A DNA stretch of 64,000 nt, from the NCBI GenBank assembly GCA_041483195.1, contig JBGPFC010000006.1:75880-139879 (forward strand), given 5' to 3'. The position numbers and the translations under genes were made by a program. Of this stretch, positions 24,073 to 27,614 are shown one piece after another. Source of the DNA: Candidatus Eiseniibacteriota bacterium. GTDB taxonomy: Bacteria > Eisenbacteria > RBG-16-71-46. Positions within the stretch are counted from its first letter, which is position 1. Every line of letters begins with the position of its first letter. Below the pieces are notes generated by a model. That model saw only the letters and a program-made list of their open reading frames with translations. It was not told where the DNA came from and did no database searches.

Positions 24073-24873
24073 ATGATCAACAACCGAAACGTCATGGTGG
24101 TTCTGCCCGCCCACAACGCGGCCGCGACCCTGCAGCGGACGATCGCCGAGATCCCCATGAGCGTCGTCGATCAGCTGTTGCTGGTGGACGACGCCTCGCA
24201 GGACAACACCGCTGAAGTGGCGCGGCAGCAGGGCATCCCTTACATCGTCCACCCCAGGAACCGGGGGTACGGCGGCAACCAGAAGACCTGCTATGCGGAG
24301 GCCCTGCGCCGCGGCGCGGAGATCGTCATCATGCTCCACCCGGACTACCAGTACACGCCGCGGCTGATCGGCGCGATGGCGTGGCTGGTGGGATCCGGCG
24401 AGTTCGACGTGGTGCTGGGCTCGCGCATCCTGGGCACCACCGGCGCCGTGAAGGGCGGGATGCCGCTCTACAAGTACGTCGCGAACCGCTTCCTCACGCT
24501 GGCGGAGAACATCCTGCTCGGGACCAAGCTCTCCGAATATCACACCGGCTACCGCGCCTTCAGCCGCGAGGTGTTGGAGACCCTGCCGCTCGAAGAGAAT
24601 TCCGAAGACTTCGTCTTCGACAACCAGATGCTGGTGCAGGCGGTGGCGTTCGGATTCCGGATCGGGGAGATCAGCTGTCCGACGAAATATTTCCCGGAGG
24701 CCTCGAGCATCAACTTCCGTCGCTCGGTGATCTATGGGCTGGGCGTGATGGCGACCGCCGTGTCGTATCGGCTGCATCGCTGGGGGCTGCGGCACTCCGC
24801 ACTGTTCGAGCCGGAAGGACGCCGGCTGCCCACCGCCGGCGCCGCGCGCCCCGTCACCCGGAGGGAACGGTAG
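24073..24873 (+). CDS. Glycosyltransferase family 2 (polyprenol-phosphate glycosyltransferase-like)
   Basis: [52 protein letters not shown]. Confidence 0.92.
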
Positions 24874-24891
24874 GCGGGCTCGCGCCCGCGA

Positions 24892-25476
24892 TCACGCTCC
24901 CCGGCGCACCGCGAAGCGATCCGGCGTCGCCTTGAATATGGCGAGCGTCGAATCCGAGGTGAAGAAGTATGGACGCCCGCCGAAGTCGAAACGCGGCGAG
25001 CGCCTGTCCGGGCGGAAGCGCCCCGCGCTCACCGGATCCGTGACGACGCCGCAGTATTGGAGCGGCCTCCTCACGAATCGTTCCTTCGCGTCGTGGCTCG
25101 AGAAGAAGTACACCTCGTGGTTCACGCAGGCGCGAAACGTGGAATCGAGCGTTGCCATCCGGCCGCGGCGCACCGGGCACGGCAGCTCGATGTGGAGCCC
25201 CGCGAGGTATTTTCCCGGGTCTTGCACGAAGACCCCTGGGCAGCCGCTTCAGCAGAAACCGACCGGCAGCCCGTTCACGTAGACCGGGCGCACCTTCGGG
25301 TTGAGCTTCGCGCCCCGCACCGCGCAGCGATCGTTGAGCGACACCAGCGAGTCCGGGTACTTGAGCCGCGGGTGCCCGGGATCGGCGGTGGGCACGTAGC
25401 GCTGGGCCCCGCTCGAGGCCGCGAGGCCGGCGGCGGCGAGCACCAGCGCGATGGCGATGACACGCGACGGCTTCAT
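24892..25476 (-). CDS. Secreted triple YHS/TRASH-domain protein with in-frame UGA, probable selenoprotein (FC-U-SGC)
   Basis: ATG 25476 overlaps the glyS stop; signal peptide; TGA 25251-25249 is in frame with the ORF 24892..25227 and lies inside the YHS motif GFC*SGC..F..DP.KYL; SECIS-like hairpin follows. Confidence 0.8.
25214..25240 (-). promoter_or_regulatory. Candidate bacterial SECIS element
   Basis: CCC-AG-GGGUCUU-CGUGC-AAGACCC-GGG: 7-bp upper stem, GU at loop positions 2-3, loop starting 20 nt after the UGA. Confidence 0.7.
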
Positions 25477-27614
25477 GCGCTCTTCTCCCCCTCGACGACC
25501 ACCTTCGAAAGATCCCAGCCGCGCAGGAACAGCTCGCGCACCTCGGCGAGCAGCTTGAGCCGGCTGACGCGCGTCGGCAGATCGTCCACGTTCACCATCA
25601 CGTGATCGAAGAAGCCGTGAATCGCGGATTCCATCGCGAGCAGCGCGGGCAGGATCTCGGCGTAGGCGCGACGCTCCCACAACGGTTCGGTGCGCGCGCG
25701 GGCCGAATCCAGCGCCGCCAGCAGCATGCGCTCCGCGGGCTCGATCACGCGCGCGCGATCCAGCGAAGCCGGCAGCGATTCGGTCGCCTTGGCCAGGATG
25801 TTCGCGACGCGCTTGAACAGCACGACCAGCGGCTCGAAGCGGGCGTCGGCGCGGAATCCGGCGAGCGTGCGCGCCCGTTCCAGGCAGTCGCATGGGTCGA
25901 TCCAGCCCGGACGCGCGCGCGCCGCGCCGTCCGTCACGATGCGTGCCTCGAGCGCTGCGTCGCGCGCGTCGTACGGGACGCCCCGCTCGTCGAGCGCCGC
26001 CTCGACCCGGCCGCGCCAGAATTCGCCAAGCTTCTTCACGATCTCGGCCTGCGACAGGTTCGGATCGGCGGCGAAGAACGCGCGGGTGCTCTCCATGGTC
26101 GCGTCCCGCAGATCCAGGTGGCGCTCCTGCTCGATGAGGATGCGCACCGCGCCGTTGGCCGCACGCCGCACGCCGTAGGGATCCTCGCTCCCGCTCGGCA
26201 CCTTGCCGCCCACGAACGCGCCCGCCACGTGGTCGAGCTTGTCGGCGAGCGCGAGGATCACGCCGGCGGCCGTCGCGGGCGGCGCGTCGGCGGGGCCCCG
26301 CGGACGGTGGTGCTCGGAGATCGCGGCCGCGACCGGCTCGGGCTCGCCCGCCCGGCGCGCGTAGTGCCCGCCCATCACGCCCTCGAGGCTCGCGTACTCC
26401 TTGCCGCTCCCGATCATCTCGGAGAGCAGATCGGTCTTGCACAACAGCGCGGCGCGGCGCGCGTGCGCGGCCGCGCCGGGCTCGAGCCGGGCCGCGATCC
26501 AGTCACACAGCGATTCGAGCCGCCGGGCCTTCTCGCGCAGGCTGCCGAGGCCCTCCATCCACACCACGCCCGCGAGCGCGTCGACGCGATGCGCCGGCGG
26601 CAGCTTGAGATCCGAGTTCCAGTAGAAGCGCGCGTCATCGAGACGCGCGATGAGCACGTCCTCGGCGCCCTTGCGCACGGTGTCGATGCCATGCGCCTCG
26701 CCGTTGCGCACCGCGATGAACGCCGGCAGCAACCGGCCCGCCGCGTTCTCGACCGCGAAGAAGCGCTGGTGCTCGCGGAGCGCGGTGACGATCACCTCAC
26801 GCGGCAGGTCGAGGAAGCCCGTGTCGAACGCGCCGGCGAACGCGGTCGGCCACTCGACCAGGAAGTTGTTGATCTCGAACAGCTCGGGATCCGCAACGAC
26901 GCGCCCGCCGGCGGCGCGCGCGAGCGCCTCGACCTGTGAGCGCATCCGGGCGCCGCGCTCGCGCTGGCCGGCGATCACGTGTCGCGACGCCAGCGCCTCC
27001 GCATAGCGCGAAGCGTTCGGGATCTCGACCGGCCCGGGCGCGAGGAAACGATGGCCCTGAGAAACCCGGCCCGCCTCGAGCGCGAACGCGCTGACCGGAA
27101 TCACGTCGTCGCCCAGCAGCGCCACCATCCAGCGCACCGGCCGCGCGAACCGCGTTTCGTCATCGAGCCAGCGCATGGTCTTGGGGAACGTGAGCCGTTG
27201 GGCGAGCGCCGCGAGCGGCGCGCCCAGCACCTCGCGCGCGGGCTTGCCGGTGTGGTGGACGGTGACCGCCACGTATTCGCCCTTCGGCGTCGCGACCCTG
27301 CGCACCGCCGAAAGCTCGGCGCCCTTCCCCGCGCAGAATCCCAGGAGCGCCTTCGTGGGCTTCCCCTCCGCGTCCCACGCGACGCGTGAGGCCGGCCCCA
27401 TCGCCTCCTCGCTCGCGTCGGCCTGGCGTTCGGCGACACCGCGAGCCGTGATCGCGAGGCGCCGCGGCGTCGCCAGCTTCTCGATTTCCCCGCTCTCGAG
27501 CCGCAGCTCGGCCAGCATCGCGCGCGCGCCCCGCTCGAGCTGCTCCAGCGCGGGCGGGACGTAGCCGGCCGGCAGCTCCTCGACGCCGATCTCGAACAAT
27601 AGGTCGCGGCTCAC
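25473..27614 (-). CDS. glyS: Glycine--tRNA ligase beta subunit
   Basis: [63 protein letters not shown] overlapping the glyQ stop. Confidence 0.96.

What the first reader, a model, noticed from the sequence alone, without database searches (positions are those of the whole stretch)
24892..25476. Hidden secreted selenoprotein: three YHS/TRASH domains with a C-U-x-x-C motif and a SECIS-like hairpin
Seen: two ORF-track fragments are one reading frame broken only by TGA at 25251-25249 (GGT TTC TGC TGA AGC GGC TGC = G-F-C-*-S-G-C). Read through, it gives 194 aa: signal peptide plus three YHS-like repeats (NDRCAV...GFC*SGC...F..DPGKYL; PCPV...YFFSS....RF...P.QY; TDPVS...YFFTS....F.A.P.RF). A hairpin GGGUCUU-CGUGC-AAGACCC follows, loop 20 nt after the UGA with G at loop position 2, and the codons there are unusually A-ending (CCA, CAA, GGA, AAA) for this genome. 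Known: YHS/TRASH domains carry FC(C/S)xxC metal-binding motifs, and bacterial SECIS elements lie just 3' of the UGA with a G early in the apical loop. Inference: UGA encodes Sec in place of the second Cys, giving an exported metal-binding or redox selenoprotein. I recall YHS (seleno)proteins being annotated, so novelty of this exact architecture needs checking.
Basis: partly seen in the sequence, partly recalled or inferred. Interest (0 to 1): 0.88.

Follow-up and report, generated by a model that had tools for sequence, protein, structure and literature searches.

The report
Uncatalogued exported YHS-domain selenoprotein gene
The stop codon inside this small secreted, metal-binding-type gene is almost certainly read as selenocysteine, which adds a widespread soil and sediment family, usually cut in two by gene callers, to the known bacterial selenoproteins.

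Summary
Window 25476-24892 (- strand) is one 194-codon frame broken only by TGA at 25251-25249, in the context G-F-C-U-S-G-C.

It is very probably a real selenoprotein gene (about 0.95):
- 22 independent homologues have TGA at this column. 12 DNA-verified homologues, and many database proteins, have TGC there.
- A 7-bp hairpin with a 5-nt loop, starting 13 nt after the UGA, is 97% paired with compensatory changes in the 22 TGA forms. It is absent from the 12 Cys forms.
- The genome encodes selA, selB, selD and tRNA-Sec.

The protein has a signal peptide, one Cys/Sec-bearing YHS/TRASH-type domain and two Cys-less YHS domains.

It is not a member of the known YHS selenoprotein family NF041384: it scores 15.9 bits against a cut-off of 70, and that family carries Sec in a different motif. 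I found no such form in the 119-family inventory of a 2026 review. Its function is inferred: soft-metal binding is more likely than thiol/selenol redox.

This scan has already noted look-alike C-U-x-x-C YHS genes on other DNA (e1-2194421, e1-3316917).

Verdict: new member of a known kind, of moderate interest.

The parts
24892..25476 (-). Whole selenoprotein gene: 194 codons plus the TGA stop. The ATG overlaps the glyS stop codon (ATGA).
   Evidence: full-length homologues
25405..25476 (-). Predicted Sec-type signal peptide (residues 1-24: basic N-end, hydrophobic core, S-G-A before Q25).
   Evidence: Read by eye; no signal-peptide program was run. Homologues all begin with similar hydrophobic N-ends, mostly ending A-x-A then Q-R-Y-V. 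The AF2 model has a low-confidence helix at residues 4-23.
25195..25359 (-). Domain 1 (residues about 40-94): YHS/TRASH-type domain with the ligand pattern N48-x2-C51-x23-C75-U76-x2-C79.
   Evidence: N48, C51, C75 and column 76 are invariant and C79 is kept in at least 90% of 19 sequences. The family profile matches FCC-type repeats that Pfam calls YHS/TRASH. hhalign against domains 2 and 3 is weak.
25249..25251 (-). In-frame UGA, read as selenocysteine (residue 76).
   Evidence: TGA in 22 sequences and TGC in 12 at the same column. Contigs of runs X3 and X4 show no difference here.
25217..25235 (-). SECIS-like hairpin: 7-bp stem (25235-25229 with 25223-25217) and loop CGUGC (25228-24). It starts 13 nt after the UGA.
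25048..25188 (-). Domain 2 (residues about 97-143): Cys-less YHS domain.
   Evidence: Pfam YHS, 2 stretches. hhalign of domain 2 against domain 3: probability 96%, E 3.9e-9.
24907..25047 (-). Domain 3 (residues about 144-190): Cys-less YHS domain.
   Evidence: Best Pfam YHS stretch is 146-190.

Best explanation
This is a genuine selenoprotein gene of a Candidatus Eisenbacteria bacterium. SelB with Sec-tRNA(Sec) reads the UGA at codon 76 as selenocysteine, and the small hairpin that starts 13 nt downstream recruits SelB. The 194-residue product is exported by a Sec-type signal peptide. It consists of an N-terminal YHS/TRASH-type domain followed by two Cys-less YHS domains. In the first domain Sec sits next to the third metal ligand (N48, C51, C75-U76, C79). 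Shown here: the Sec/Cys pair, the SECIS-like hairpin with covariation, the Sec machinery, and YHS homology. Inferred: export, and the function. The most likely function is binding of a soft metal ion (Cu(I) is the leading candidate) by a thiolate/selenolate cluster in the periplasm. My odds are about 0.95 that UGA encodes Sec and about 0.55 that the site binds metal rather than acting as a redox centre.
For: (1) Sec/Cys pair. The column after F-C is TGA in 12 of 20 full-length hits among 61 related genomes and TGC/TGT in 8. Genome contigs added 4 TGA and 5 TGC forms. A metagenome pattern scan that required the TGA added 6 more. Both flanks are conserved: 16 invariant columns in 19 sequences.
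(2) Hairpin. In 22 TGA forms 97.4% of 154 cells pair, 4 of 7 pairs show compensatory change (16 cells), and 0 of 500 shuffles reach this. Sliding the partner by 1 column drops pairing to 59-62%. Pair 22:36 is GC in 12 and AU in 10, with no mispair, and links a synonymous third base to a first base. In 12 Cys forms pairing is 56%, no better than shuffles. Local MFE has a median of -9.7 kcal/mol against -1.55. It is at or below -7.5 in 18 of 22 against 0 of 12. Loop position 2 is G in 22 of 22 against 1 of 12. The hairpin meets the bSECIS model printed in PMC13188914 (passages read). The K/Q codon in the 3' arm ends in A in 17 of 18 cases in TGA forms and in 0 of 5 in Cys forms. The window's own genes use such codons 2-3% of the time.
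(3) Machinery. selB scores 352.7 bits, selA 552, selD 348.6 (with its own TGA) and tRNA-Sec 69.9, all above their cut-offs. selA is above its cut-off in all 12 genomes that carry a TGA form. The selD of this genome has a similarly placed hairpin.
(4) Not a sequencing error. Contigs of runs X3 and X4, neither marked as a possible source, span the codon with 0 differences.
(5) Domain. Pfam YHS scores 43 bits against 30.3. The ligand spacing fits the D/C-x2-C...C-x3-C pattern described for YHS/TRASH in PMC4626032 (passages read).
Against: There is no experimental evidence of Se incorporation, export or metal binding. The 65-nt stretch as a whole folds no better than shuffles (z 0.60; 138 of 200 shuffles fold as well); only the local hairpin stands out. 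Domain 1 is linked to YHS only indirectly: hhalign against domains 2 and 3 gives probabilities of 3-6%. Gene neighbourhoods vary and none is a metal-resistance operon. U-x-x-C is also a classic redox motif. Related sequences are not independent, so the shuffle statistics overstate significance.
Confidence: 0.7

Rival explanations
1. It is a real selenoprotein, but the C-U-x-x-C site is a redox centre. A selenenylsulfide forms between U76 and C79 or C75, in a periplasmic thiol/selenol oxidoreductase or chalcogen-transfer protein, rather than the site being a stable metal site.
For: U-x-x-C is the commonest Sec motif of thiol oxidoreductase-like selenoproteins in Table 1 of PMC13188914 (table read). 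One neighbour in G057 is thioredoxin-like. No metal-handling genes lie nearby.
Against: The fold family is YHS/TRASH, not thioredoxin-like. The four conserved positions match the TRASH metal-ligand spacing. One natural variant has His in place of C79 (G045); His is a metal ligand but cannot form a selenenylsulfide.
Confidence: 0.2
2. UGA is a true stop. The locus encodes two products, as public gene calls have it: a 75-residue exported peptide and a 111-residue protein started at the GTG in the hairpin loop.
For: The window's gene is recorded as the 111-aa fragment P0002. Similar C-terminal and N-terminal fragments are on record.
Against: Cys forms are continuous single proteins. The TGA column aligns with Cys. 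The 111-aa piece would lack the signal peptide. The hairpin covaries only where TGA is present. The fragments are what a gene caller produces at any Sec codon.
Confidence: 0.03
3. A nonsense mutation (pseudogene) or an assembly or sequencing error at a Cys codon.
For: A single base separates TGA from TGC/TGT.
Against: 22 sequences from different genomes and metagenomes share the TGA. Downstream conservation is intact. Two further runs show the same base. The tree needs only 4 Sec/Cys changes among 34 rows, against 10 expected for shuffled labels, so the TGA is inherited.
Confidence: 0.02

Closest known systems
YHS domain-containing (seleno)protein, NCBIfam NF041384. First predicted in Olavius algarvensis symbionts by Zhang and Gladyshev 2007 (PMC1976440, section 12 read). 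Listed with the motif GxU in PMC13188914, Table 1.
   Same: An exported bacterial protein built of YHS-like domains, with a Sec/Cys pair and a SECIS-like hairpin after the UGA.
   Different: The window protein scores 15.9 bits against a cut-off of 70. NF041384 members lie at other loci in 4 of 61 related genomes, and no locus of this family reaches the cut-off. Those members carry the Cys/Sec in the first knuckle (G-Y-C-P-V) and have no F-C-x3-C motif. Here Sec sits in F-C-U-x-x-C.
YHS/TRASH metal-binding domains (Pfam PF04945 and the TRASH families) of Cu-ATPases, ribosomal protein L24e and the Mycobacterium phlei adenylyl cyclase (PMC4626032, passages read)
   Same: Domain size and the ligand pattern [D/C]-x2-C ... 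C-x3-C. Here it is N48-x2-C51-x23-C75-x3-C79. The Pfam YHS hit is above threshold.
   Different: An extra selenol/thiol directly follows the third ligand (C-U or C-C). The protein is exported rather than cytosolic. It is followed by two Cys-less YHS domains. No metal binding has been tested.
Sec-containing metal-handling proteins listed in PMC13188914 Table 1: CopZ-family GxUC and CU forms, cation ATPase UxxC, MerT-like, SO_0444 UxC, MbdU CU
   Same: Sec replaces or adjoins a Cys in a metal-ligand motif. C-U dipeptides occur.
   Different: These are unrelated folds and families. None is a YHS/TRASH domain with C-U-x-x-C.
Bacterial SECIS consensus (bSECISearch model, as printed in the Fig 2 legend of PMC13188914)
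   Same: Loop of 5 nt (allowed 3-9), stem of 7 bp (4-16), G at loop position 2, 20 nt from UGA to the loop (16-37), and local MFE of -10.2 kcal/mol (at or below -7.5).
   Different: The hairpin is very short and has no lower stem that is conserved across homologues. 4 of 22 homologues have a local MFE above -7.5.

Membership tests
Bacterial SelB/SECIS-dependent selenoprotein gene | In-frame UGA aligned with Cys in homologues, with both flanks conserved | tested here: met
   TGA in 22 sequences and TGC in 12 at one column. There are 16 invariant columns on both sides.
Bacterial SelB/SECIS-dependent selenoprotein gene | [quoted passage not shown] | tested here: met
   Window: 5-nt loop CGUGC, 7 bp, 20 nt, -10.2 kcal/mol. 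The MFE criterion is met in 18 of 22 TGA forms. Covariation: 0 of 500 shuffles reach the observed value.
Bacterial SelB/SECIS-dependent selenoprotein gene | selA, selB, selC and selD present in the genome | tested here: met
   All four score above their curated cut-offs in G000, which is 96.8% complete.
Bacterial SelB/SECIS-dependent selenoprotein gene | Selenium actually incorporated at the UGA | not testable with these tools
   Needs 75Se labelling or mass spectrometry.
NF041384 YHS_seleno_dom | HMM score at or above the curated 70 bits | tested here: not met
   15.9 bits. No match in G000 at E <= 0.01. Across 61 genomes the hits above the cut-off lie at other loci.
NF041384 YHS_seleno_dom | Sec/Cys in the G-x-[U/C] knuckle motif | tested here: not met
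   Members read G-Y-C-P-V, and the review gives the motif GxU. Here Sec is 25 residues further on, in F-C-U-x-x-C.
Pfam YHS (PF04945) / TRASH clan | HMM score above the gathering threshold | tested here: met
   43 bits against 30.3, with 2 stretches. These cover the Cys-less domains.
Pfam YHS (PF04945) / TRASH clan | Ligand pattern [D/C]-x2-C-x(19-22)-C-x3-C in the Sec-bearing domain | tested here: met
   N48-x2-C51-x23-C75-x3-C79, with N in place of D/C and one extra spacer residue. The D/C...C-x3-C ligand pattern is from PMC4626032. The x(19-22) spacing range is recalled from the TRASH literature and was not seen in a call.
Pfam YHS (PF04945) / TRASH clan | TRASH/treble-clef-like fold | tested here: inconclusive
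   The model is confident (pLDDT 90.5) and repeats a hairpin-plus-two-helices unit three times. No Foldseek match has E <= 0.001. The best VIA Z is 4.1. L24e gives Z 2.4-2.9 on domain 3 only.
Pfam YHS (PF04945) / TRASH clan | Binds a transition metal | not testable with these tools
   Needs purified protein.

The most novel reading that the evidence does not exclude
The pair of Cys-less YHS domains is a periplasmic module that works only with a selenol supplied in cis. The same genome, and most relatives searched, carry two selenoprotein families that attach unrelated Sec-bearing N-terminal parts to this same two-domain module. One part is a C-U-x-x-C YHS domain (this gene). The other is a bare T-U near the mature N-terminus (G000 contig 46). 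Together they would form a previously unrecognised selenium-dependent extracytoplasmic metal or chalcogen handling system, widespread in soil and sediment bacteria.
Probability: 0.15. Interest if true: 0.7.

Novelty: new member of a known kind. Interest (0 to 1): 0.5.

Why it matters
It would add a family, or a distinct Sec-position subfamily, to the roughly 119 catalogued prokaryotic selenoprotein families. It would be one of the few predicted to act outside the cytoplasm, with Sec inside a metal-ligand motif.

It also exposes a systematic annotation error. The window's own gene is on record only as a 111-aa fragment. Of the 150 best 50%-identity cluster representatives of the family, at least 65 look like C-terminal pieces starting just after the Sec codon, against 18 full-length Cys forms. 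An HMM or an annotation rule for this family would repair many records. The natural Sec/Cys pairs, some within one genus, are ready-made material for asking what selenium adds to a metal site.

Tried and rejected
- Rfam scan of 24700-25700 at E <= 10: only a chance-level sRNA match on the other strand.
- Whole 65-nt fold: z 0.60, not exceptional.
- The search for related loci with the 19-sequence alignment failed because no stretch was conserved enough. It was repeated with 6 sequences. One of its two patterns (GFCC) can find Cys forms only, so its Sec:Cys ratio is biased.
- The metagenome pattern scan required the TGA, so it says nothing about that ratio. Of more than 119 matching stretches, 80 loci were fetched. 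Eleven passed the family HMM: 6 true members, 2 of another architecture, and 3 frames of 21-34 aa at chance level.
- Foldseek against PDB: no match with E <= 0.001. VIA-align wide: no Z of 5 or more. Neither gives a fold assignment.
- PDB sequence search: only short YHS-like stretches in the eukaryotic ciliary proteins AK9 and CFAP276.
- Expression: no RNA holder listed.
- Neighbourhood: Pfam was run on 111 of the 208 neighbouring ORFs I had listed (9 of 16 loci, all TGA forms not next to glyS). The neighbours are diverse: TonB, a TonB-dependent receptor, radical SAM (twice), ABC-2, thioredoxin-like/NHL and others. No shared operon emerged. The 97 ORFs of the Cys-form loci were not scanned.
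- Linking selA presence to TGA against Cys forms failed as a discriminator: selA is above its cut-off in 55 of 61 genomes, including those with Cys forms.

Full report
OBSERVATION. On the - strand an ATG at 25476 opens a frame of 194 codons. It ends at the TGA at 24894-24892 and is interrupted once, by TGA at 25251-25249, in the context G-F-C-*-S-G-C. The ORF list shows the two in-frame pieces. The ATG overlaps the stop of the upstream glyS frame (ATGA), and a GGGGGAG stretch lies about 10 nt upstream. The hairpin GGGUCUU-CGUGC-AAGACCC is at 25235-25217. It appears in the MFE and centroid folds of the 65 nt after the Cys codon. The energy of that whole stretch is ordinary, however (z 0.60; 138 of 200 shuffles fold as well). 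Rfam has nothing relevant.

IS THE UGA A SEC CODON? I searched 61 related genomes (G000 and 60 relatives) in six frames with the read-through protein. There were 20 full-length first-copy hits. Twelve carry one in-frame TGA and eight carry TGC or TGT, always at the column after F-C. One of the eight, G038, is an unpublished genome.

A scan of one genome per species gave 17 loci, 14 of them titled Candidatus Eisenbacteria. Eight duplicated the earlier loci, 4 were new TGA forms and 5 were new TGC forms. A metagenome scan for GGN-TTC-TGC-TGA-N6-TGY-CC required the TGA but not the hairpin. Of more than 119 stretches, 80 loci were fetched, and 6 are clear family members (HMM E of 5e-56 or lower). 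That makes 22 TGA and 12 TGC sequences.

In a 19-sequence protein alignment, 16 columns are invariant on both sides of the site. These include N48, C51, F74, C75 and the Sec/Cys column, and C79 is kept in at least 90%. A maximum-likelihood tree of the 34 rows needs 4 Sec/Cys changes, and well-supported branches force at least 2. Shuffled labels need 10 on average, and 0 of 500 shuffles are as low as 4. A Sec form (G001) and a Cys form (G002) of the window's own genus are sisters with support 99/91. Assembled contigs of two further sequencing runs, not flagged as the source, cover the codon with no difference.

THE HAIRPIN. I tested the structure on a gap-free, codon-registered 69-nt alignment. 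The structure is columns 20-26 paired with columns 32-38.
- In the 22 TGA forms, 97.4% of 154 cells are paired. Four of 7 pairs have changes on both sides (16 cells). No shuffle out of 500 reaches the observed pairing or covariation score. Sliding the partner by one column drops pairing to 59-62%.
- Pair 22:36 is GC in 12 and AU in 10, with no mispair. It couples the first base of a Val/Ile/Thr codon to the synonymous third base of an Asp/Gly codon.
- One metagenome member changes two amino acids (G to D and P to V) while keeping both outer pairs through A-U and C-G.
- The same structure on 12 Cys forms pairs 56% of cells, no better than shuffles or slides.
- Local folding of 23 nt gives a median of -9.7 kcal/mol in TGA forms (18 of 22 at or below -7.5) and -1.55 in Cys forms (0 of 12). 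Loop position 2 is G in 22 of 22 against 1 of 12.
- The K/Q codon in the 3' arm ends in A in 17 of 18 TGA forms and in 0 of 5 Cys forms. CAA and AAA are 2-3% of Gln and Lys codons in the window's high-GC3 frames.

The element fits the published bacterial SECIS model: loop 3-9 nt, stem 4-16 bp, G in the first two loop positions, 16-37 nt from UGA to the loop, and MFE at or below -7.5 (PMC13188914, passages read). The selD gene of this genome, itself a TGA gene, has a small hairpin with a G-rich loop at a similar distance. The sequences are related, so the shuffle figures are not probabilities. The contrast with the Cys forms and the slid controls is the stronger argument.

MACHINERY. G000 (4.17 Mb, 96.8% complete) has selB (352.7 bits, cut-off 242), selA (552, cut-off 268), selD (348.6, cut-off 125, with one TGA) and tRNA-Sec (69.9, cut-off 47). 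selA is above its cut-off in 55 of 61 genomes, including all 12 with a TGA form. It does not separate Sec from Cys forms.

WHAT THE PROTEIN IS. Residues 1-24 look like a Sec-type signal peptide: basic N-end, hydrophobic core, and small residues before Q25. I read this by eye and ran no predictor. All aligned homologues have such N-ends, and one (G054) has a lipobox-like L-V-A-A-C.

Pfam finds YHS (43 bits against 30.3, two stretches, best at 146-190). Profile comparison of alignment slices shows that domains 2 and 3 are homologous (probability 96%, E 3.9e-9). Domain 1 aligns to them in the expected register but only weakly (probabilities 3-6%).

Domain 1 is tied to YHS/TRASH in three ways:
1. 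Its conserved residues N48-x2-C51-x23-C75-x3-C79 match the four-ligand pattern described for YHS/TRASH, in which the first ligand is often Asp (PMC4626032, passages read).
2. A profile search of 1.84 billion representatives (2,773 hits at E <= 0.001) aligns domain 1 to repeated F-C-C-x-x-C units of other exported proteins. Pfam calls those units YHS and TRASH: for example, 6 stretches with E 7.9e-69 in P0148, and the first domain of the three-domain relative P0069.
3. The AlphaFold model (pLDDT 90.5, pTM 0.82) repeats one unit, a beta-hairpin plus two helices, three times.

Structure searches gave no clear match. The best Foldseek E is 0.11, to the YHS-bearing methane monooxygenase hydroxylase. 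The best VIA Z is 4.1, and L24e gives Z 2.4-2.9 on domain 3.

HOW IT PROBABLY WORKS. Sec occupies the residue directly after the third ligand, where Cys forms have a second Cys. This creates a C-U-x-x-C cluster facing C51 and N48. In an exported protein of a metal-trafficking domain family, the most economical reading is a thiolate/selenolate site for a soft metal. Cu(I) is the leading candidate by analogy with YHS/TRASH proteins. One natural variant with His in place of C79 (G045) fits a ligand role. A redox role for U-x-x-C is the main rival.

Context gives no help. glyS lies directly upstream in 11 of 35 loci. Elsewhere the neighbours differ (111 of 208 listed ORFs scanned).

COMPARISON WITH WHAT IS KNOWN. 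A 'YHS domain protein' selenoprotein family was predicted in 2007 (PMC1976440, section 12 read). It is NCBIfam NF041384, with the motif GxU in Table 1 of the 2026 inventory of 119 families (PMC13188914; parts 1 and 2 of section 7 read). The window protein scores 15.9 bits against that model's 70. G000 has no match at E <= 0.01. In 4 of the 61 genomes, true NF041384 genes exist at other loci. They read G-Y-C-P-V...Y-L-F-S, so their Cys/Sec is in the first knuckle and they have no F-C-x3-C.

The inventory lists no YHS form with C-U-x-x-C. Full-text searches returned nothing for 'TRASH domain' with 'selenocysteine' (0 papers) or 'Eisenbacteria' with 'selenocysteine' (0 papers). 'YHS' with 'selenoprotein' returned 12 papers, of which the four on prokaryotic selenoproteins were checked. 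Papers outside the held library and supplementary tables were not seen. No NCBIfam model covers the protein. Public gene calls split it: the window's gene is recorded as a 111-aa fragment that starts at the GTG of the hairpin loop. Other records either end at ...G-F-C or start at [M/V]-[K/Q]-D-P. Among the 150 best representatives, 65 fit that C-terminal-fragment pattern, 18 are full-length Cys forms, 2 are N-terminal fragments, 6 are multi-repeat proteins and 59 are unclassified. Many of the 59 are also short pieces. Their DNA was not examined.

EARLIER NOTES OF THIS SCAN. These were read after my own analysis. Look-alike C-U-x-x-C YHS genes were reported in other genomes (e1-2194421, e1-3316917), and the T-U family was reported in this genome (e1-7546365) and elsewhere (e1-1417607, e1-6547304). 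They agree with my reading but are not independent evidence.

VERDICT. This is a real, uncatalogued selenoprotein gene that uses the ordinary bacterial machinery. It is a new member of a known kind. Its function is inferred, not shown.

Noticed in passing
G000 contig 46: 23496-24035, - strand (L188:1497-2036); TGA at contig 46: 23859-23861; also L042-L051: A second candidate selenoprotein family. The roughly 120-aa 'two-YHS' hits are each preceded by an in-frame TGA: signal peptide, short linker, [F/Y/E/I]-[T/S/V]-U, then two Cys-less YHS domains. This held in 11 of 11 loci examined, and no Cys form was seen. A GGUCCC-GUY-GGGACC hairpin starts 11-14 nt after the UGA in one subtype. No NF041384 match was found in G000. 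The same gene was noted earlier by this scan (e1-7546365).
   Followed up: partly
L145 and L123 (metagenome contigs): A different architecture with the same Sec motif: a signal peptide, a single YHS-like domain with G-F-C-U-x-S-C-P, and a Cys-rich C-terminal region. A hairpin follows the UGA.
   Followed up: no
window 24892-25227 (P0002); P0030-P0036, P0061-P0073: Gene callers cut Sec forms in two. C-terminal pieces start at the GTG or ATG just after the TGA, and N-terminal pieces end in ...G-F-C.
   Followed up: partly
window 25473-25476 and upstream to about 27550: The gene start overlaps the glyS stop (ATGA). glyS lies directly upstream in 11 of 35 family loci, for both Sec and Cys forms, which is probably inherited synteny.
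   Followed up: partly
L010 and L014 (G000 contig 9: 87191-88583): selD is itself a TGA-containing gene (G-U-A-S-K) with a small hairpin about 12 nt after the UGA. tRNA-Sec lies about 380 nt from it.
   Followed up: partly
L034 (G045): A Sec form in which the last Cys of the motif is replaced, reading F-C-U-S-S-H-V-P. It also has a long C-terminal extension.
   Followed up: no
G040 contig 7, G043 contig 264, G047 contig 324: Tandem duplicated Cys-form copies lie head to tail, at 43-50% identity to the query.
   Followed up: no
P0076, P0111, P0148: F-C-C-x-x-C YHS units occur as 5-6 tandem repeats. In two proteins they are fused to a Planctomycete cytochrome c domain and leucine-rich repeats.
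   Followed up: no
L189-L192 (G037, G029, G004, G053): True NF041384 members (Cys forms, G-Y-C-P-V motif) are present in 4 of the 61 genomes searched, at loci unrelated to this family.
   Followed up: partly
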